Origin: a phage
Reading direction: 5' to 3' (one strand)
DNA length: 44,991 nucleotides
Sequence record: PZ379602.1
Under the pieces are notes generated by a model. That model had not been told where the DNA came from, searched no databases, and saw nothing but the letters and a program-made list of their open reading frames with translations. This document shows, piece after piece, positions 12,661 to 31,259 of this stretch. The position numbers were made by a program, and so were the translations under genes. Numbering within the stretch: the first letter of the stretch is position 1; every line of letters starts with the position of its first letter.

Positions 12661-12673
12661 ATGAGGAGTTGTA

Positions 12674-13147
12674 ATGATTTACGTGTTTGATATTGATGGA
12701 ACTATTGCTAACAATGAACATAGAAGCCACCTCTTACCATCTAGTGACCTTCACTTGACTTCAAGTTGGAGTGATTACAATAGAGCCTGTTCTGGAGATT
12801 CACCGATAATTCCAATGATAAACATGATGAATGCGTTAGCTGAGTTATCGCCAGTTTACATCATGACTTCAAGAAGTGACGAAGTCGAATGTATGACGCT
12901 TGAATGGCTTCAGTATAATAATATTAATTATGATGGAATATATATGAGGAGTAGATTGGATAACAGAAATGACTATATCATTAAAGAGATGTGGCTAAAT
13001 GATTTGTGTAATGGTGACAAAGCAAGTGTGATAATCTTTGAGGATAATCCTAATGTTATCAGTCACCTAAGGAATTGCGGATATACTGTAATGTCAGTTT
13101 GTGAATATAAAGAATTACCAAAAGACTGCGAATCTCACGGAGAATAA
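12674..13147 (+). CDS. HAD-superfamily phosphatase
   Basis: Motif I FDIDGT near the N-terminus; IMTSR and FEDN resemble HAD motifs II and IV. Confidence 0.55.
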   Translation: MIYVFDIDGTIANNEHRSHLLPSSDLHLTSSWSDYNRACSGDSPIIPMINMMNALAELSPVYIMTSRSDEVECMTLEWLQYNNINYDGIYMRSRLDNRNDYIIKEMWLNDLCNGDKASVIIFEDNPNVISHLRNCGYTVMSVCEYKELPKDCESHGE

Positions 13148-15496: not shown

Positions 15497-17080
15497 TTAC
15501 CCCAGCAATCGTGGATTAATGTAAATTTTATCACCAATCAGGCATGTGTAGTTTTTCTCATCAAGCATAGGAATCAAGTGGTCCTTAATGCGAGTCATAA
15601 TTCCAGCCTGAGCTTCAAAAGGTTTAACCTTGCGTGCAGCCTCATACAACGAGCGAACACCAACAACACCTTTACCATTCTTGCCTTGCTTAATCAGGAT
15701 ATCAACCAGCTTGTTCATCTCGGCATTGTCACCAGCATGACCAGCAGCACTAGCGGATGATAAATAAGTCTTGCTTAGTTCGTTGAAAATCATAACCGCT
15801 TCCTGCATTGTATCCAGTTCAATCTCTCTTGACTTTTGAGGGCTGGATCCGGCTGGTGAGAACCAGTTACGAATTACGTGCAGAACAGAAGCGATGCGGA
15901 TTGCTTGCTTATCAAACTTACCAAGAGCACCGCGCAACATTGTGTGAGAATACTTGCCACCATCACCAAGATGAGGCTCCATCTCTTGACGAGCGCGGTT
16001 AAGGTAACGCATTGATGACGCGCTTACAGTAAGTTTCGCTTCAACTTCATTCATAATCTCATGAACAAGACGGAAATAGTCTGCTTTCAGGCCGCCATCA
16101 ATAGCCTCATAGGTTGAATCACCATTCTCATCAACAAATACGCGCTCACCAAGAAATGACTTCTCACGCACCAGAAGGAAGCGCTCAGATACACCGATAC
16201 CACGCGCACCGGCATTCATAATGGCGTTAATTGTTTCATCCTGCGCAATTACAGAGATACAACCCATAGCCACGAAACTCATGTTGTTTTCTGCATTCGC
16301 GCGCGCAATAGATACATTACCCGCATCCCACGCCTTAAGCACAAGTTCGCTGTTCGTTTTCTTCGAGCCATCACCGTAAGTCATGCCTAACAGTGAGTTG
16401 ACGCTAGTAGCCTCATCAGATATTACCGCAAAATTACCCTGGCGATTGTTGATTCGCGCAAGACCTTCCGGTGTAGTATCGGAGACAGGGAATACTATAT
16501 CGCATAGCTTCTCGAGCTTCTCCTCTAAATCCTCCTTCTCCTCAAAAAGTGAAGCCATTTCAGAAGGTGATTTCTCCTGCTTCATCTCTTTAGCCAGAGC
16601 GGACAGTTTAGCCATAATCTTTTTTCGATCACGTTTACGTACTTCATTCAACCGCTCAGTCTCAGCAATCATCGGCGCAATTGATAGCGAGTTAATGGCT
16701 GATTTACCAGTTGAAGGCGGCTGACTTGTTACCACGTACAAAGATGTTGGCTGTTGGGTTCCATGATACTCGACAGTAAAACGCCCAAGCATTGCAGCAG
16801 AAACACAACCAAGAAAGTGCATGTAAGCTGACGACTCAGGGAACTGAACCGAGCGAGCGATATTAGCCGATAGCTTACCAACAACATCAATATCATTACC
16901 GAGTGAGATTACTGGATACTTATCATTACCTGTATCAATCTCGACAGGTGCTTTCCAGAACGATTGAGACTGTCGATAGCCATTGGCATTAATAGCCACG
17001 CGAAGCGGTGGTAGGTTGTCATTGGCAGCGATTGCCATAACCTGCTCAACAGATAGTTTATCTTCGTTGAAATCAAACAT
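15497..17080 (-). CDS. large early protein of unknown function (527 aa), possibly replication-associated
   Basis: Long ORF with a promoter-like element and GGAGAG RBS upstream; no P-loop or methyltransferase motifs recognised. Confidence 0.75.
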   Translation of the reverse strand: MFDFNEDKLSVEQVMAIAANDNLPPLRVAINANGYRQSQSFWKAPVEIDTGNDKYPVISLGNDIDVVGKLSANIARSVQFPESSAYMHFLGCVSAAMLGRFTVEYHGTQQPTSLYVVTSQPPSTGKSAINSLSIAPMIAETERLNEVRKRDRKKIMAKLSALAKEMKQEKSPSEMASLFEEKEDLEEKLEKLCDIVFPVSDTTPEGLARINNRQGNFAVISDEATSVNSLLGMTYGDGSKKTNSELVLKAWDAGNVSIARANAENNMSFVAMGCISVIAQDETINAIMNAGARGIGVSERFLLVREKSFLGERVFVDENGDSTYEAIDGGLKADYFRLVHEIMNEVEAKLTVSASSMRYLNRARQEMEPHLGDGGKYSHTMLRGALGKFDKQAIRIASVLHVIRNWFSPAGSSPQKSREIELDTMQEAVMIFNELSKTYLSSASAAGHAGDNAEMNKLVDILIKQGKNGKGVVGVRSLYEAARKVKPFEAQAGIMTRIKDHLIPMLDEKNYTCLIGDKIYINPRLLG

Positions 17081-21449: not shown

Positions 21450-21872
21450 ATGAAATTAAGCAAATCTCAAAGGGAAGAGTTGAAGGGCAAGTTCGGTGGT
21501 CGCTGCGCTTATTGTGGGTGTGAACTACCTGAGAAAGGCTGGCATGCTGACCATGTTGAACCGGTGCTACGTAAATCTGAGGTATGCATGAAGGCAGCGG
21601 AGAAAGGAACTTTCAAGCTGAAGGCGACAGGTGAGTTTAATCGACCACAAGCTGATCGAATGGAAAACCTTTACCCTGCATGTGCTCCATGCAACCTCAT
21701 GAAAACTTGCTATTCCCTTGAAATGTTCAGGGAACAGGTGTCTCTTCAAGTCGCTCGCGGGCGTAAGAGCAGCATGAATTTTCGCACGGCAGAGCGGTTC
21801 GGCCTCATCTCCATAGTGGAGGATCCAGTTGTTTTCTGGTTTGAGAAGTTTGAGCAAATTAACAAAATCTGA
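21450..21872 (+). CDS. HNH endonuclease
   Basis: CAYCG...HADHVEP...NLYPACAPCNLMK: Cys pairs flanking His and Asn as in HNH nucleases. Confidence 0.75.
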   Translation: MKLSKSQREELKGKFGGRCAYCGCELPEKGWHADHVEPVLRKSEVCMKAAEKGTFKLKATGEFNRPQADRMENLYPACAPCNLMKTCYSLEMFREQVSLQVARGRKSSMNFRTAERFGLISIVEDPVVFWFEKFEQINKI

Positions 21873-22630: not shown

Positions 22631-22814
22631 TAACGACAATAATCACAAACATCATTACATTTACGTGTTCACATCAATCATTAACGATTTTGACATTAAG
22701 GCGATAAGCTATGCATACCACGAGTCAACAAAACCAAGTGTATCAATAGGTGAAACATGTGCGTTCTACGAGTGCAAAGATTGTGGCAAGATGCTTATAA
22801 CTGAGGAGTTTTGA
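22623..22814 (+). CDS. hypothetical Cys-containing protein (63 aa)
   Basis: ATG overlapping the upstream gene; C-terminal CAFYECKDCG suggests a zinc-binding knuckle. Confidence 0.45.
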   Translation: MSDNDNNHKHHYIYVFTSIINDFDIKAISYAYHESTKPSVSIGETCAFYECKDCGKMLITEEF

Positions 22815-23011
22815 TGAATAAAATTATTAAGAAAGGCGATGCTATCAAGTGCACAAAGGCGGCATCGGATGACTTCATGGATGGATGCGATTACCAGGTC
22901 GAAAAGGTATCGAAGACTGGCCACGTATTCTGCTACAGCGATAATGGCGAATTGGTGAGCATTGACTACCCGTATGACCAGAATTATGGGAAATTCGAAA
23001 GAGTAAGTTGA
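22811..23011 (+). CDS. hypothetical protein (66 aa)
   Basis: ATGA overlap with the upstream gene. Confidence 0.45.
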   Translation: MMNKIIKKGDAIKCTKAASDDFMDGCDYQVEKVSKTGHVFCYSDNGELVSIDYPYDQNYGKFERVS

Positions 23012-23199
23012 CACATCTAACCCTGACTGGTACATTAACAACTGTAGACAGACGAGGCCACCAAGTGGCAACGGCGCACGGAGCGCAACACAAAGTCCAT
23101 AGCTCACTAAGCAGCGTATATGGCGAAATCGGTCGAGAAACTCGACGCTGGAAGCGTAACCAGCAATCCTTCAATAGCGCAATCGCTACTCAAGGATTT

Positions 23200-23275
23200 G
23201 TTCTGCTGGCGTAACAGGATAACGCAAAGACCTCCTAAGTCTTAGTTACTGGTTCGAGTCCAGTGCGGAACACCA
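23200..23275 (+). tRNA. tRNA-Arg (anticodon CCU, reads AGG), CCA encoded
   Basis: Manual fold: acceptor GTTCTGC/GCGGAAC (one G-U), D stem GCGT/ACGC, anticodon stem AAGAC/GTCTT with loop CTCCTAA, T arm ACTGG-TTCGAGT-CCAGT, discriminator A, CCA. Confidence 0.85.
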
Positions 23276-23306
23276 AATTAAGAAACCAATAATCCTGGGG
23301 GATTAA

Positions 23307-23519
23307 ATGAAAAAAGTAACAATCATCGTAAAAGATATTGAAAGCGGCACTTCCCAAAAATTCAACGCAACACTTGACCGTGAACATAAATGCTTAAAGG
23401 GTGTGATTGGCGGGGTTTCAGTTAGCGCGGATATTAAAGGTTATCTCGAGCTTGAAAGAGAAACTCAAAACTATAGCAATCAGAGCGGGAAGATAAAAAA
23501 TGCAGCTTTGGGATGTTAA
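23307..23519 (+). CDS. hypothetical protein (70 aa)
   Basis: ATG after GGGGGA RBS, just downstream of the tRNA. Confidence 0.5.
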   Translation: MKKVTIIVKDIESGTSQKFNATLDREHKCLKGVIGGVSVSADIKGYLELERETQNYSNQSGKIKNAALGC

Positions 23520-23688
23520 GCTTTCAATCCGATTAATGGGTCGTAGTTGCAAAAGTTGCACTCAAGAATTTATCGCGTCGGTTACTGCTAAGTCCTCAGA
23601 GGAAGCAGTAGCGAAAGTTAAGGTAATGTCTGGTGCCGACCCGGATTACCACAAATTCCTAGTAGCTTACGTTCGTGAGCGAAAGTAA
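23500..23688 (+). CDS. hypothetical protein (62 aa)
   Basis: ATG ORF overlapping the end of the previous gene. Confidence 0.45.
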   Translation: MQLWDVKLSIRLMGRSCKSCTQEFIASVTAKSSEEAVAKVKVMSGADPDYHKFLVAYVRERK

Positions 23689-23741: not shown

Positions 23742-23766
23742 GCCCTCTTCTTGAGGGCTTTTTTTC
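23742..23766 (+). terminator. rho-independent terminator at the early/late boundary
   Basis: Hairpin GCCCTC-ttctt-GAGGGC followed by T7; then TATAAT and AAGGAGGT RBS before terminase. Confidence 0.7.
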
Positions 23767-23812
23767 GTTTGCTATATGATATAATGCATCTCTAAACAAA
23801 GGAGGTAACAAA

Positions 23813-24337
23813 ATGAAAGACGAAAACTTCACCAGTCAGGCGCAAGAAAAGGTCCGCTCTGGCAACTTTAAAGCCATGTACAATAAAAAGTACTCAGACA
23901 TTACAACGCTAGCCAAAAACCGAAGCATGACACCCGAACAGCTATTTGAATTCGCCGTGAAATACTTCTCATGGGCTGAGGACCAGGCAATCAAGGCAAT
24001 CGAGACAGCCAGCTTCCAGGGTGTGGTAAAAGAGAGCCTGGTGCACAAACCACGAGTCTTCACGCTAACCGGATTCTGCCTTTACTGCGGTGTCACCCAT
24101 AGCGCCATCGAGAAATGGAGGAAGTCGGCTGGTTATGATGAGGTGATTGCGTTCATTGATTCCGTGATTCGCGAGCAGAAATACCAGCTTGCAGCATCTG
24201 GCATTGTTAACCCTGGCATGATTTCCAAGGAGCTTGGAATCGACAAACCGCAGGAGATCACTATAAGCAATAACTCTTCTGCTAACGACGTCGAAACGAT
24301 GAAGGAAGCTCTGGAGTCTGTGATTAGTAAGCTGTAA
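23813..24337 (+). CDS. terminase small subunit (by position)
   Basis: 174-aa ORF immediately upstream of the large terminase; strong RBS. Confidence 0.55.
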   Translation: MKDENFTSQAQEKVRSGNFKAMYNKKYSDITTLAKNRSMTPEQLFEFAVKYFSWAEDQAIKAIETASFQGVVKESLVHKPRVFTLTGFCLYCGVTHSAIEKWRKSAGYDEVIAFIDSVIREQKYQLAASGIVNPGMISKELGIDKPQEITISNNSSANDVETMKEALESVISKL

Positions 24338-24457
24338 TAACATGGGGTAGATTGGCGTGATCAAATTAATGAAGGCGTTATTGGTGTATTACATGATGGC
24401 AGCTACATGCTTCACAACTGGATTCTTAATTGGCGTGATGGTTGGATTGGTGAAATT

Positions 24458-26026
24458 ATGGCTAATTTAGTTTGGGAGGAAATGACGCCAGCAGAAAAGA
24501 TGGCGGTTAAGGCGATATCCACTCATAGCTTCGAGGGTTTCTTACGAGTGTGGTTCCAGCTTACCCAGGGAGAGCGATACATACCTAACTGGCACCATAG
24601 ATACCTTTGCAGAATTATCGATGAGATTATTGCTGGTGAGCGTAAGGACACAATCATTAACATCGCTCCTGGCAGTGGGAAGACAGAGATTGCCTCAATT
24701 CACTTCCCAGCCTACTCAATGGTTAAGTTGAGAAAGGTAAGGAACCTGAATATATCGTATGCTGACTCACTGGTTAAGCGTAACTCCAAGCGTGTGCGCG
24801 ACTTAATTAAGTCTGTTGAGTTCCAGGAGTTGTTCCCATGTAAGTTTGGTACGTGTAAGGATGATGAGCTACAGGTCCTGGATGACTATGGCAAGGTCAG
24901 GTTTGAGTCAATCTCTAAAGCCACTGGCGGCCAAATTACAGGCGCGAGGGGTGGATATATAACCGATTCGTATAGTGGTGCGGTACTGTTAGATGATTTT
25001 GACAAACCAGCCGACATGCTTTCTGCTGTTTTTCGCGCTAACAATCACGTGATGCTAAAGAATACAATACGCTCTCGTAGGGCGAGCTCCGTAAAAGGAA
25101 AGGCGACGCCGATTATCTCTATCCAACAGCGCCTTCATGTGAACGATAGTACGTGGTTCATGATGAATGGCGGTATGGGTATTAGCTTCGACTTGATTAA
25201 AATACCGGCGCTCGTAACTGAGGATTACGTCGACACGCTTCCTGACTGGATTAAGCAGCAATTCATTGATGACGTTCTATCAAGCGAATATATTGAGCGT
25301 GATGGTGTTAGGTACTATAGCTATTTCCCTGGCAAGGAATCTGTTCACGACCTAGTTGCAATGTGGGATTCTGATAGCTATACATTCCTTAGCCAGTATC
25401 AGCAAGAACCAGTAGCACTTGGCGGCAACCTGATTAACGTAGACTGGCTTCAACGCATTAGCGACACTCTGCGACCGCCAGCTAAGTACGATTACAGGTT
25501 TATGGTCCTTGATACTGCGATGACAACCAAAAGTTACAGCGACTTTAGCGTCATGCAGCTATGGGGTTATAAGGATGGGAAGATTTATCTGCTTGACCAG
25601 CGGCGCGGTAAATTTGAAGCTCCTGAGCTCGAGGCTGAGTTATTGGATTTCGAGAAGATGGCTAGGGCATCCAATCAGATAGATGGCATCCTTCGTAAAA
25701 TCATCATCGAGAAGAAAGCCTCTGGTATTGGCCTGATTCAATCAGCCGGAAGGGTTATGCGAACGCCTATCGAGCCGTACGTTCCGGATAACGATAAGCT
25801 GACTCGCGTAATGAGTGCATTGCCGCAGATTAAAGCTGGTAACGTAATCCTTCCGGAGTCTGCTACTTGGCTTAATGGCTTGCTAACGGAGATTGCGGCA
25901 TTCACGGCAGATGATTCACATGTTCACGATGACCAGATAGACTGTTTGACAATGGCTGTCAACCTGGTACTGAACATTGCAGAAGACCCTAAATCGAGGA
26001 TGATGCGCCTCGCTGGCATCAAATAG
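24458..26026 (+). CDS. terminase large subunit
   Basis: Walker A-like NIAPGSGKTEI; acidic nuclease-type C-terminal half; start at ATG 24458 (an alternative ATG exists at 24407). Confidence 0.85.
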   Translation: MANLVWEEMTPAEKMAVKAISTHSFEGFLRVWFQLTQGERYIPNWHHRYLCRIIDEIIAGERKDTIINIAPGSGKTEIASIHFPAYSMVKLRKVRNLNISYADSLVKRNSKRVRDLIKSVEFQELFPCKFGTCKDDELQVLDDYGKVRFESISKATGGQITGARGGYITDSYSGAVLLDDFDKPADMLSAVFRANNHVMLKNTIRSRRASSVKGKATPIISIQQRLHVNDSTWFMMNGGMGISFDLIKIPALVTEDYVDTLPDWIKQQFIDDVLSSEYIERDGVRYYSYFPGKESVHDLVAMWDSDSYTFLSQYQQEPVALGGNLINVDWLQRISDTLRPPAKYDYRFMVLDTAMTTKSYSDFSVMQLWGYKDGKIYLLDQRRGKFEAPELEAELLDFEKMARASNQIDGILRKIIIEKKASGIGLIQSAGRVMRTPIEPYVPDNDKLTRVMSALPQIKAGNVILPESATWLNGLLTEIAAFTADDSHVHDDQIDCLTMAVNLVLNIAEDPKSRMMRLAGIK

Positions 26027-30318: not shown

Positions 30319-31259
30319 ATGGCCATTAAATTTGATGCAGAACAAGCAAAAATCACCGCTCACCTTGAGCAAATGGGTGTAGATAAAGCTGATGCTGCTG
30401 GTATCTGGACCGTCAAGCAGTTGACCGCCAACCTGGCGCGTGCGTACGAAGCAGAATATCCGGAAAACTCCGTAGTTAATATCTTCCCAGTAACTAACGA
30501 AATCCCGGCCCATGCAAAGTATTTTGAGTACCCTGAGTTTGACGGAACGGCAATCGCACAGATTATCGCTGATTACTCTGATGACCTTCCGCTGGTTGAT
30601 GCGTTCATGACCGAGAAGCAAGGCAAAGTTTTCCGTTTTGGTAACGCGTTCCTGATTTCCACCGACGAAATCAAAGCTGGCGCAGCAACTAGTCAGTCAC
30701 TGTCAGCTCGTAAACAGGCTTTGGCTTTTGAAGCTCATGACAACCTGCTCGATAAACTGGTATGGTCTGGCTCTGCACCGCACGGCATTCCTGGCGTATT
30801 CAATGCGCCGAACGTTAACCAGGTTGTTGCTGGTACTTGGAACTCCGCGGCTGCTGCTATGACTGATATCACAGCGCTTATCGATGCTATCGAAACAGCT
30901 ACCAATGGTGCTCACACCGCGACTGATATCCTGCTGCCTGCTTCCGCTCGCCGCCTGATGCAAGAACTGGTGCCGAACACCTCTATCAGCTACGCGCAGT
31001 TGTTTGCAACCAATAACTCCGGCATCACTCTGCGTTATCTGCAATTCCTGGATAACTACGACGGTGCTGGTGGCAAAGCTGCACTGGCATTTGAAAAAAT
31101 CCGCTCAACCTGAGTATTGAGATTCCGGAAGTGACGAACGTGCTACCTGGCCAGCCGAAGGATTTGCATTTCAAGTACCCGGTAACCTCTAAAGCGACGG
31201 GCTTGATCATCTATAGGCCGCTAACTGTATCAGTACTGAAGGGCATTACCTACGCCTAA
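30319..31259 (+). CDS. major capsid protein; ORF ends at 31113 but coding continues in the -1 frame to 31259
   Basis: 264-aa ORF after AAAAGGAAT RBS; about 50 more codons of protein-like sequence follow in the -1 frame after an A6 run 31094-31099, up to a TAA and terminator. Confidence 0.75.

What the first reader, a model, noticed from the sequence alone, without database searches (positions are those of the whole stretch)
23200..23275. Phage-encoded tRNA-Arg(CCU) in the early region
A complete cloverleaf with anticodon CCT (reads AGG, rare in enterobacterial hosts) and encoded CCA lies between small early genes, overlapped by a spurious six-frame ORF (23008..23214). A single tRNA for a rare Arg codon suggests codon-usage compensation or protection against a host anticodon nuclease.
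Basis: seen in the sequence. Interest (0 to 1): 0.5.

Follow-up and report, generated by a model that had tools for sequence, protein, structure and literature searches.

The report
Known phage tRNA-Arg for AGG codons
This is a real arginine tRNA gene in a T1/Rtp-like E. coli phage that reads AGG, a codon rare in the host but the phage's most-used arginine codon; the same tRNA was already published for related phages, so the finding is correct but ordinary.

Summary
Window 23200-23275 (+) is a complete tRNA-Arg(CCU) gene with encoded CCA. ARAGORN calls it, Rfam scores it 58.9 bits against a threshold of 29, and it is the only tRNA in the window. The window is an Rtp-like Drexlerviridae coliphage. 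The same tRNA (96-100% identical) occurs in about 40 phage records and was published for phage Rogue1 in 2012 as "recognizing the rare codon AGG".

Codon compensation is well supported. AGG is the top arginine codon here (12.7 per 1000, against 2.8 in a host sample). It is twice as frequent in packaging and structural genes as elsewhere. Relatives carrying a UCU version at the same locus prefer AGA instead, and this shift is specific to the AGG/AGA pair. The anticodon-nuclease idea has no specific support, because the anticodon loop is identical to that of host argW. ORF 23008-23214 is not conserved.

Side finding: the tRNA sits behind a conserved promoter and an unannotated, structured leader of about 155 nt with compensatory hairpins. 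The leader is also present in tRNA-less T1. At least four different tRNA-Arg gene bodies occupy this slot in relatives.

The parts
23200..23275 (+). tRNA-Arg(CCU) gene, 76 nt, CCA encoded
   Evidence: ARAGORN; Rfam RF00005 58.9 bits; cloverleaf is the MFE fold; covariation over 15 homologues. By reading the sequence: U8, A14, G18G19, A20, U33, A37, G53-T54-T55-C56, A58, C61 and discriminator A73 are all present.
23234..23236 (+). Anticodon CCT (reads AGG only)
   Evidence: ARAGORN 'anticodon (cct) at position 35'. In alignment A2, position 34 is the only anticodon position that varies between homologues (C or T).
23008..23036 (+). Sigma-70-type promoter-like site: TTGACA, 17 nt, TG-TACATT (-35 at 23008-23013, -10 at 23031-23036)
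   Evidence: Consensus scan, 10 of 12 matches plus an extended -10 TG. Relatives have hexamers at the same place: TTGCAT-17-TAATAT in Rtp-like phages and TTGACC-17-TAGTAT in T1. Activity is inferred, not shown.
23043..23199 (+). Conserved, structured, unannotated leader between promoter and tRNA. Hairpins: H1 23057-23069, H2 23074-23086, H3 23097-23123, H4 23132-23146, H5 23147-23164 (loop ends CGUAA), H6 23165-23198.
   Evidence: MFE -48.4 kcal/mol, z -2.79. The 5' half is shared by 92 phage records and carries no annotated feature in any of the 45 records listed. Over 17 sequences, 93.8% of cells pair against 17-45% when slid, and 6 pairs change on both sides. RNAalifold recovers the same helices. 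H1 across subfamilies: 4 of 4 pairs change on both sides. H5 has three stem versions. No Rfam family matches even at E<=10. A covariance model finds it in T1 and 14 tRNA-less loci at the syntenic site.
23008..23214 (+). Six-frame ORF (68 aa, TTG start) overlapping leader and tRNA: not a gene
   Evidence: The same frame has 2-7 stops in each of the 16 relatives translated. Its TTG start is the -35 hexamer. The nearest relative AN_ECEAS does not annotate it.
23307..23688 (+). Two small ORFs downstream of the tRNA (23307-23519 and 23500-23688), probably co-transcribed with it
   Evidence: phrog_16862 and phrog_2919, function unknown. They resemble Rtp16 (47%) and Rtp17 (78%), and the Rtp record notes Rtp17 as similar to T1 gp56. 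A GGGGGA ribosome-binding site and ATG follow the tRNA by 31 nt.
23742..23768 (+). Intrinsic-terminator-like hairpin with T run, just before the small terminase gene
   Evidence: Scan result GCCCTC-TTCTT-GAGGGC followed by TTTTTTT. The T1 record annotates a terminator at the equivalent place, 8322-8344, before TerS.
23813..26026 (+). Small terminase (23813-24337) and large terminase (24407-26026): start of the AGG-rich packaging and structural block
   Evidence: PF16677 and phrog_606 for TerS. TerL is 89% identical to that of IME253 and CEB_EC3a. Packaging and structural ORFs have 16.3 AGG per 1000 codons against 8.8 elsewhere.

Best explanation
The 76-nt gene encodes a functional arginine tRNA with anticodon CCU. 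It is probably transcribed by host RNA polymerase from its own conserved promoter as part of a leader-tRNA-small-ORF transcript. It would then be cut out by the host tRNA-processing enzymes and charged by host arginyl-tRNA synthetase. Its job is to raise the supply of the AGG decoder. E. coli has only one gene for this tRNA (argW) and uses AGG rarely. This phage uses AGG more than any other arginine codon, especially in its packaging, head and tail genes.

Shown here:
- the gene and its fold;
- selection on the fold;
- presence of the Arg identity nucleotides;
- the phage's AGG demand;
- the family-wide match between anticodon and codon preference.

Inferred: transcription, processing, charging and the fitness benefit.
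For: Gene and fold:
- establish the tRNA.
- In 15 homologues the cloverleaf keeps 99.7% pairing with 13 of 21 compensatory pairs. A20, C35 and U36 never vary and the discriminator is A or G. These are the known E. coli ArgRS identity elements (established knowledge).

Demand in the phage:
- The window has 164 AGG codons, 12.7 per 1000 and 26.6% of all Arg codons.
- The same ORF heuristic gives 2.8 per 1000 in a 50-kb E. coli K-12 sample and 5.2 in tRNA-less T1.
- AGG is 16.3 per 1000 in packaging and structural ORFs against 8.8 elsewhere. AGG/Arg is 0.35 against 0.18, Fisher p=1.2e-6.
- There are 8 tandem AGR pairs, 3 of them AGG-AGG.

Anticodon tracks codon preference:
- CCU carriers (window, L010, L012, L013, L037) have AGG/(AGG+AGA) of 0.62-0.71.
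- UCU carriers (Rtp, T145P1, 12397V, Msk, A110b, IME253, CEB_EC3a) have 0.37-0.44.
- The CCU-minus-UCU difference is +0.25 for AGG/AGA. It is -0.01 to +0.06 for 11 other NNG/NNA pairs and +0.11 for CTG/CTA.
- In TerL, which is 89% identical in protein to UCU carriers, the window has AGG where they have AGA at aligned Arg columns 165, 364 and 531. Gene totals AGG:AGA are 9:3 against 3:6 and 5:6.

Context:
- A conserved promoter lies upstream.
- K-12 has single argW (CCU) and argU (UCU) genes at the two loci fetched.
Against: - No expression, aminoacylation or fitness data exist here.
- The carriers are related, so the association rests on about three independent contrasts: Rogunavirus-like phages, the window's own sub-clade within Braunvirinae, and L037. 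Cause and effect cannot be separated, since the tRNA may simply permit drift toward AGG.
- Some loci with no tRNA in the stretch held also lean toward AGG (L015-L017, ratio 0.58-0.60). Their genomes were not scanned whole.
- Several ORFs use no AGG at all despite having Arg codons (for example 30319-31113, with 7 Arg codons, and 15497-17080 on the - strand), so AGG is not free of cost even with the tRNA.
- Gene calls came from a simple longest-ORF heuristic.
- The host sample is a single 50-kb region rich in ribosomal protein genes.
Confidence: 0.75

Rival explanations
1. Counter-defence: the phage tRNA replaces or outlasts host tRNA-Arg that is destroyed during infection by a host or competitor tRNA nuclease. 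Candidates would be a colicin D-type enzyme, which cuts arginine tRNAs in the anticodon loop, or a defence system yet to be described. The parallels are T5 tRNA-Lys against PARIS and T5 tRNA-Tyr against retron Eco7.
For: - Phage tRNAs are known to neutralise tRNA-cleaving defences (PMC11464382 and PMC11555353, listed), and the general hypothesis is laid out in PMC10264068.
- Retron Eco2 cuts host tRNA-Arg among other tRNAs and did not protect against the Drexlerviridae tested (PMC12916289). That paper does not link the two facts.
- The phage's acceptor, D and anticodon stems differ from argW.
- The phage encodes a T4-type polynucleotide kinase homologue at about 12665-13141, an enzyme class used in tRNA repair by T4 (established knowledge).
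- The Rtp record annotates an Stp-like PrrC activator.
Against: - The anticodon loop CUCCUAA is identical to host argW's, and all 15 homologues keep host-like loops, CU[C/U]CUAA. The predicted loop mutations are therefore absent.
- No defence nuclease specific for tRNA-Arg(CCU) or (UCU) turned up in the literature searches.
- This idea does not explain why the anticodon tracks the phage's own AGG/AGA preference specifically, nor why T1-like relatives with few AGR codons have no tRNA.
- A minor isoacceptor is an odd target for a host trying to stop translation.
Confidence: 0.12
2. Passenger or processing signal: the tRNA is mainly a mobile cassette, or an RNase P/RNase E cleavage point that separates the structured leader from the downstream mRNA. 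Decoding would be incidental.
For: - At least four different tRNA-Arg bodies, plus extra tRNAs in L013 and L037, occupy the same slot behind the same promoter and leader.
- The window's tRNA body is 97% identical to that of phiKP26-type phages, while both its flanks resemble those of UCU-carrying Rtp-like phages. That looks like exchange of the gene alone.
- T1 has the leader and ORFs without any tRNA.
Against: - Every occupant examined in the Rtp-like slot is an AGR-reading tRNA-Arg with an intact, covarying cloverleaf and conserved Arg identity nucleotides.
- A mere cleavage signal would not need a conserved anticodon, nor co-variation of that anticodon with genome-wide codon use.
Confidence: 0.08
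3. Not a working gene: a chance cloverleaf, a decayed tRNA, or part of protein-coding ORF 23008-23214.
For: - The MFE z-score is only -1.6.
- The nearest records (AN_ECEAS, ES, IMM-001) do not annotate a tRNA, and IMM-001 annotates a hypothetical protein across it.
Against: - Rfam scores it 58.9 bits against a threshold of 29.
- 13 of 21 pairs are compensatory.
- The ORF frame is broken in all relatives.
- Many other records annotate the homologue as tRNA-Arg.
Confidence: 0.02

Closest known systems
tRNA-Arg(CCU) of T1-like coliphages Rogue1 and JK06 (Kropinski et al. 2012, PMC3496638), also in AKS96, AHS24, phiKP26, Sf12, Sd1, TR1-TR3
   Same: It is the same gene: 92-97% identical over all 76 nt, with the same anticodon, encoded CCA and position about 0.8-1.1 kb upstream of the large terminase gene. 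It was published as 'recognizing the rare codon AGG'.
   Different: In the window the gene sits behind the Rtp-type promoter and leader. That leader was not detected in L010 (Sf12), L012 (phiKP26) or L013 (Sd1). The window's TerL is closer to UCU-carrying phages.
tRNA-Arg(UCU) of Rtp-like phages (Rtp, MSK, CEB_EC3a, and BASEL phages JeanPiccard and JulesPiccard, annotated 'codon recognized: AGA')
   Same: Same locus, promoter, leader and downstream ORFs. The gene is homologous, 79-85% identical, with an identical T arm core. It also reads AGR codons.
   Different: Position 34 is U rather than C. The D arm and acceptor stem differ through compensatory changes, and the variable loop is one base longer. 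These genomes prefer AGA over AGG.
E. coli argW (tRNA-Arg CCU) and argU (tRNA-Arg UCU)
   Same: The anticodon loop is the same as argW's (CUCCUAA). The Rtp-type phage tRNA shares its D arm and anticodon arm almost exactly with argU, and the window's anticodon stem has the argU-like GAC/GUC core.
   Different: The phage gene is not a copy of a host gene. A blastn search of the 76 nt against 5,426 complete E. coli genomes finds nothing at E<=0.01. Acceptor and T stems differ.
Rare-codon tRNA genes of Shiga-toxin prophages (ileZ-argN-argO) and tRNA clusters of T4 and T5 (from memory, not tested here)
   Same: These are phage-borne tRNAs for codons rare in E. coli, classically explained by codon compensation for late genes.
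   Different: Here it is a single tRNA in a virulent 45-kb siphophage. There is no sequence match in E. coli genomes, prophages included.
T5 tRNA-Lys against PARIS and T5 tRNA-Tyr against retron Eco7 (PMC11464382, PMC11555353)
   Same: A phage-encoded tRNA that could in principle replace a depleted host tRNA.
   Different: Those tRNAs differ from the host target where the nuclease recognises or cuts it. This tRNA has a host-identical anticodon loop, and no matching nuclease is known.

Membership tests
tRNA (Rfam RF00005) | Covariance-model score above the curated threshold | tested here: met
   58.9 bits against a gathering score of 29, full-length match 1-71. ARAGORN agrees.
tRNA (Rfam RF00005) | Four-helix cloverleaf maintained by selection | tested here: met
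   99.7% of cells pair. 13 of 21 pairs change on both sides. Slid controls give 29-48%.
tRNA (Rfam RF00005) | Conserved tertiary and loop nucleotides: U8, A14, G18G19, U33, purine 37, T54-T55-C56, A58; 7-nt anticodon loop | tested here: met
   Read directly from the sequence and from the invariant columns of alignment A2.
Arginine-accepting tRNA (E. coli ArgRS substrate) | Identity elements A20, C35, U36 or G36, A73 or G73 (established knowledge) | tested here: met
   A20, C35 and U36 are invariant in 15 homologues. The discriminator is A in the window and A or G in relatives.
Arginine-accepting tRNA (E. coli ArgRS substrate) | Actual charging with arginine in vivo | not testable with these tools
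   Needs an aminoacylation assay or charged-tRNA sequencing.
Codon-compensating phage tRNA | The cognate codon is rare in the host and common in the phage | tested here: met
   AGG is 12.7 per 1000 in the window and 2.8 per 1000 in a 50-kb K-12 sample measured the same way. The genome-wide K-12 value is lower still (own knowledge, about 1-2 per 1000).
Codon-compensating phage tRNA | The cognate codon is enriched in late, highly expressed genes | tested here: met
   16.3 against 8.8 per 1000, p=1.2e-6. Caveat: some structural-block ORFs, for example 30319-31113, use no AGG.
Codon-compensating phage tRNA | Anticodon and codon use co-vary among related phages | tested here: met
   CCU carriers 0.62-0.71 against UCU carriers 0.37-0.44 for AGG/(AGG+AGA). 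The shift is specific to this codon pair. Few independent contrasts.
Codon-compensating phage tRNA | Loss of the tRNA lowers translation of phage genes or burst size | not testable with these tools
   Needs a deletion mutant.
Nuclease-evading (counter-defence) phage tRNA | Anticodon-loop differences from the host tRNA at or near the cleavage site (PMC10264068) | tested here: not met
   The loop CUCCUAA is identical to argW's. All homologues have CU[C/U]CUAA.
Nuclease-evading (counter-defence) phage tRNA | A known host defence nuclease depletes the cognate host tRNA | tested here: inconclusive
   The literature searches found colicin D listed as an E. coli tRNase and Eco2 cutting tRNA-Arg among many tRNAs. 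Neither is tied to Drexlerviridae or to the CCU isoacceptor.

The most novel reading that the evidence does not exclude
The tRNA is exchangeable cargo of a conserved expression module: a promoter plus a structured leader RNA. The module sits at the entrance to the packaging and structural genes throughout T1-like phages (Drexlerviridae), is not annotated in the records examined, and matches no Rfam family. The leader keeps two hairpins through several different stem sequences, has invariant flanks (CGUAGACA-ACGAG ... AACG, and a loop ending CGUAA), and is present even in T1, which has no tRNA. It could be a new cis-acting phage RNA. One possibility is an element that lets RNA polymerase read through the many terminators of the late operon. 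Another is a processing or stabilising platform. Swapping the tRNA cassette behind it (CCU against UCU) may then have re-tuned arginine codon choice genome-wide.
Probability: 0.3. Interest if true: 0.55.

Novelty: already known. Interest (0 to 1): 0.2.

Why it matters
The tRNA itself adds little, because it is a published and widely annotated feature of T1-like coliphages. The comparison across the family has more value. Closely related phages carry either a CCU or a UCU arginine tRNA at one fixed locus, and their genomes prefer AGG or AGA to match, with no comparable shift in other codon pairs. This is a clean natural test in favour of the codon-supply explanation for phage tRNAs, at a time when the counter-defence explanation is gaining ground. 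It also sets up a simple experiment: swap one anticodon base.

There are practical points too. Several database records (AN_ECEAS, ES, IMM-001, Rtp, phiKP26) miss the gene, and one paper states that Rtp lacks it. The conserved structured leader upstream is an unstudied candidate regulatory RNA in a classic phage family.

Tried and rejected
- An Rfam scan of 22950-23350 at E<=10 gave only the tRNA and three chance-level hits, so the leader belongs to no known family.
- A blastn search of the tRNA against 5,426 E. coli genomes gave no match. The idea that it is a recent copy of host argW/argU or of a prophage tRNA was dropped.
- The exact 16-mer search AACGGCGCACGGAGCG in IMG/VR gave 18 loci, but only 7 carry a tRNA-Arg beside the motif and just 3 of those added new leader sequences. 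The rest carry no tRNA-Arg or repeat genomes already held.
- The retron Eco2 paper mentions both Drexlerviridae and tRNA-Arg, but it makes no link between them.
- A large codon-usage preprint (PMC13015707) had nothing specific on this tRNA.
- A search for transcriptome or antitermination work on Drexlerviridae listed no paper containing the term Drexlerviridae among those shown.
- A leader peptide was considered because of GAGG followed by GTG in H1. It was rejected: the start codon is lost in the other stem versions and stops follow within 9-17 codons.
- A DNA-level role for H1 as a protein-binding palindrome was considered. It is unlikely, because the stem sequence changes while pairing is kept.
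- The pac site was considered and rejected, because the T1 and Rtp records place the genome ends 4.6-7.6 kb to the left.
- L014 and L036 have CCU-like codon ratios, but their tRNA region is cut off by the contig end, so they were not counted as carriers.
- They were corrected in the last entry.

Full report
**1. Observation**

ARAGORN reports a single tRNA in the window: tRNA-Arg, anticodon cct, at 23200-23275 on the + strand. Rfam's tRNA model matches 23200-23272 end to end at 58.9 bits, against a gathering score of 29. The minimum-free-energy fold of the 76 nt is the cloverleaf. Its energy z-score of -1.6 is unremarkable, as is usual for tRNAs. The sequence ends ...GGAAC-A-CCA, so the CCA is encoded. 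The anticodon occupies 23234-23236.

By direct reading, the gene has U8, A14, G18G19, A20, U33, A37, G53-T54-T55-C56, A58, C61 and discriminator A73.

**2. What genome this is**

The window is a T1-like siphophage of E. coli (Drexlerviridae, Braunvirinae, Rtp-like). The nearest records are Escherichia phages AN_ECEAS and ES, 98-99% identical around the tRNA and about 92% over 22 kb.

The gene lies in a run of small rightward ORFs:
- Upstream: 22811-23011 (phrog_4927, function unknown).
- Downstream: 23307-23519 (Rtp16-like) and 23500-23688 (Rtp17-like; the Rtp record notes Rtp17 as similar to T1 gp56).
- Then a terminator-like hairpin at 23742-23768.
- Then the small terminase (23813-24337; PF16677, phrog_606) and the large terminase (24407-26026).

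**3. Is it known?**

Yes. The 76-nt query hits 121 phage records, 39 of them at 90% identity or more. Many annotate it as tRNA-Arg. The Rogue1 paper of 2012 describes "an arginyl-tRNA ... recognizing the rare codon AGG" and notes the same for JK06 (PMC3496638). The Rogue1 gene is 96% identical to the window's.

Some records miss the gene:
- AN_ECEAS and phiKP26 show no feature there.
- IMM-001 annotates a hypothetical protein across it.
- Rtp has no annotation there.

The MSK paper states that Rtp and DTL lack the tRNA-Arg gene (PMC8421802). ARAGORN finds a tRNA-Arg(UCU) in Rtp at 4893-4969. DTL has a blastn match at 79% identity.

**4. Selection on the fold and identity**

I collected 15 distinct tRNA-Arg sequences from this locus in relatives. 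On the cloverleaf:
- 99.7% of cells form standard pairs, against 29-48% when partners are slid by 1-3 columns.
- 13 of 21 pairs show changes on both sides.
- A20, C35 and U36 are invariant and the discriminator is A or G. These are the known identity elements for E. coli arginyl-tRNA synthetase (established knowledge).
- Within the anticodon, only position 34 varies, C or U.

**5. Codon demand**

I used a simple longest-non-overlapping-ORF heuristic (74 ORFs, 12,911 codons).
- AGG: 164 codons, 12.7 per 1000, 26.6% of Arg codons, the most-used Arg codon.
- AGA: 6.7 per 1000.

The same procedure gives AGG 2.8 and AGA 4.0 per 1000 in a 50-kb E. coli K-12 sample, and AGG 5.2 and AGA 6.9 in phage T1, which has no tRNA. 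In-frame AGG (12.7 per 1000) is no higher than off-frame AGG (26.5 and 11.7), so this is codon choice among arginine codons rather than an overall excess of the trinucleotide.

Within the window, packaging and structural ORFs carry 16.3 AGG per 1000 against 8.8 in the other ORFs. AGG/Arg is 0.35 against 0.18, Fisher p=1.2e-6. The tape measure gene has 24 AGG, the J-like tail gene 22, the tail fibre gene 17 and TerL 9. There are 8 tandem AGR pairs, three of them AGG-AGG. Some ORFs avoid AGG entirely (section 10).

**6. Anticodon and codon preference change together**

At the same locus, relatives carry either a CCU or a UCU tRNA-Arg.

| Group | Members | AGG/(AGG+AGA) | Other |
|---|---|---|---|
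| CCU carriers | window, L010 Sf12, L012 phiKP26, L013 Sd1, L037 | 0.62-0.71 | |
| UCU carriers | Rtp, T145P1, vB_EcoS-12397V, Msk, A110b (whole genomes); IME253, CEB_EC3a (partial) | 0.37-0.44 | AGA 10-12 per 1000 in the whole genomes |
| T1-like loci with no tRNA | T1 and others | mostly 0.34-0.52 | AGR only 11-27% of Arg |

The key control is. The CCU-minus-UCU difference in NNG/(NNG+NNA) is +0.25 for AGG/AGA. It is between -0.01 and +0.06 for eleven other codon pairs and +0.11 for CTG/CTA. This is therefore not a general third-position shift.

Inside TerL, the window is 89% identical in protein to the UCU carriers IME253 and CEB_EC3a. It has AGG where they have AGA at aligned Arg columns 165, 364 and 531. 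Gene totals AGG:AGA are 9:3 against 3:6 and 5:6.

The phages are related, so I count about three independent contrasts rather than twelve. Direction of causation is open.

**7. Origin**

The tRNA has no match in 5,426 complete E. coli genomes, so it is not a recent host or prophage copy. The Rtp-type UCU tRNA shares its D arm and anticodon arm almost exactly with host argU. The window's anticodon stem keeps the argU-like GAC/GUC core, not the argW-like CCC/GGG core. This suggests the CCU form descends from an argU-like phage tRNA by a U34-to-C change plus later compensatory drift (inference).

The window's tRNA body is 97% identical to that of phiKP26-type phages. Its upstream leader and its downstream ribosome-binding region match UCU-carrying Rtp-like phages instead. 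The leader model does not hit L010, L012 or L013. That pattern fits replacement of the tRNA gene alone, with breakpoints close to its ends (inference).

**8. The rival: anticodon-nuclease protection**

The published signature for nuclease-evading phage tRNAs is mutation of the anticodon loop relative to the host tRNA (PMC10264068). Here the loop CUCCUAA equals argW's, and all homologues keep CU[C/U]CUAA.

I found no defence nuclease aimed at this isoacceptor. Colicin D is listed as an E. coli tRNase. Retron Eco2 cuts tRNA-Arg among many tRNAs and does not protect against Drexlerviridae, but the paper draws no connection.

The phage does encode a T4-type polynucleotide kinase homologue at about 12665-13141. 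That is weak circumstantial support for RNA-damage countermeasures. The rival also fails to explain the codon-specific co-variation. I rate it at about 0.12.

**9. The overlapping ORF**

ORF 23008-23214 starts at the TTG of the -35 hexamer and runs into the tRNA. The equivalent frame has 2-7 stop codons in each of the 16 relatives translated.

**10.

*Promoter.* A sigma-70-type promoter (TTGACA, 17 nt, TG-TACATT, at 23008-23036) lies about 165 nt upstream of the tRNA. It is conserved in position in Rtp-like phages (TTGCAT-17-TAATAT) and in T1 (TTGACC-17-TAGTAT).

*Leader.* The intervening stretch, about 23043-23199, folds into six hairpins (-48.4 kcal/mol, z -2.79).
- Its 5' half is shared by 92 phage records, and none of the 45 listed carries an annotated feature over the match.
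- Over 17 sequences the proposed helices pair in 93.8% of cells, against 17-45% when slid. Six pairs change on both sides. RNAalifold recovers the same helices.
- Hairpin H1 (23057-23069) keeps pairing through five different stem sequences across subfamilies, with invariant flanks. All four shared pairs change on both sides, and 97.9% of cells pair against 15-35% when slid.
- Hairpin H5 (23147-23164) has a loop ending CGUAA and three stem versions: GCUGG/CCAGC, CCCGG/CCGGG and GCCGC/GCGGC.
- No Rfam family matches it.

*Leader without the tRNA.* A covariance model of the 5' block finds weak (about 21 bits) but positionally consistent matches in T1 (7619-7736, an unannotated gap between ST58 and ST57). 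It also finds them in 14 other tRNA-less T1-like loci, all on the same strand about 1.3 kb upstream of TerL. The leader is therefore independent of the tRNA, and the tRNA looks like an insert between the leader and the first small ORF.

*Function.* Its function is unknown. Given its place just after a promoter and before a terminator-rich late operon (the T1 record annotates many terminators), candidates are a read-through (antitermination) element or a processing or stability element. This is speculation.

*Variable cargo.* The slot holds different contents in different phages:
- At least four tRNA-Arg bodies.
- An extra tRNA-Trp in Sd1.
- A six-tRNA cluster at a similar position in L037.
- A duplicated hairpin module in JulesPiccard.

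*ORFs without AGG.* ORF 30319-31113 and its two neighbours, 15497-17080 (-) with 27 Arg codons, and 6134-6616 (-) with 17 Arg codons use no AGG.

**11. Verdict**

The identity call and the codon-compensation reading are right and are now backed by comparative evidence. The nuclease reading is unsupported. The feature is already known, so interest is low (0.2). The conserved structured leader and the anticodon-codon co-variation are the parts worth a follow-up.

Noticed in passing
window 23008-23199 (+); also L006 (T1) 7584-7745: A conserved promoter plus a structured leader RNA of about 155 nt with compensatory hairpins. The leader's 5' half is shared by 92 phage records with no feature annotated over the match in the 45 listed, matches no Rfam family, and is present in tRNA-less T1 at the syntenic site before the small ORFs and terminase genes.
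   Followed up: partly
L004/L005 (Rtp) 4893-4969; L051, L059, L064, L065 and others: At least four different tRNA-Arg gene bodies occupy the same slot behind the same leader: type A CCU; types B, C and D UCU. The window's type A body is 97% identical to that of phiKP26-type phages, while its flanks are Rtp-like. This suggests exchange of the tRNA gene alone.
   Followed up: partly
L005 (Rtp, NC_007603) 4893-4969: Rtp carries an unannotated tRNA-Arg(UCU). The MSK paper (PMC8421802) states that Rtp and DTL lack this gene. AN_ECEAS, phiKP26 and IMM-001 also lack the annotation.
   Followed up: yes
L059 (vB_EcoS_SCS31) 668-742: The annotated tRNA-Arg looks like a chimera of the type C 5' part and the type B 3' part. 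Its T stem does not pair properly (GGTGG against CCAGT), so it may be defective.
   Followed up: no
L013 8633-8706; L037 8322-8969: Sd1 has an extra tRNA-Trp 5 nt upstream of the tRNA-Arg. The more distant phage L037 has a six-tRNA cluster (Arg, Ser, Ser, Asn, Trp, Met) at a comparable position 1.0-1.6 kb upstream of TerL.
   Followed up: partly
window 15497-17080 (-), 6134-6616 (-), 348-1319 (+), 30319-31113 (+): These ORFs contain 7-27 Arg codons but no AGG at all, unlike their neighbours. This may reflect different ancestry (a codon-usage mosaic) or selection in highly expressed genes.
   Followed up: no
window about 12665-13141 (+): A homologue of the T4-type polynucleotide kinase of Rtp (Rtp4, 41% identity) and T1 (ST64, 40%). 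This enzyme class is used by T4 to repair nuclease-cut tRNA. My ORF heuristic missed the gene.
   Followed up: partly
L070 (MG065688, 'Campylobacter phage A110b'): This record is a Braunvirinae genome about 78-80% identical to the window, with the same leader and a tRNA-Arg(UCU). The Campylobacter host label looks doubtful.
   Followed up: no
L061 (JulesPiccard) leader, locus positions about 480-810: The leader is 333 nt from the conserved motif to the tRNA and contains two copies of the 'GGTCG...CGACC CCGG-loop-CCGG' hairpin module, so the leader is built from repeatable units.
   Followed up: no
window 21450-21872 (+): This ORF matches HNH endonuclease families (phrog_2118 at 7e-55; PF01844), but its counterpart in AN_ECEAS is annotated 'DNA repair ATPase'.
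   Followed up: no
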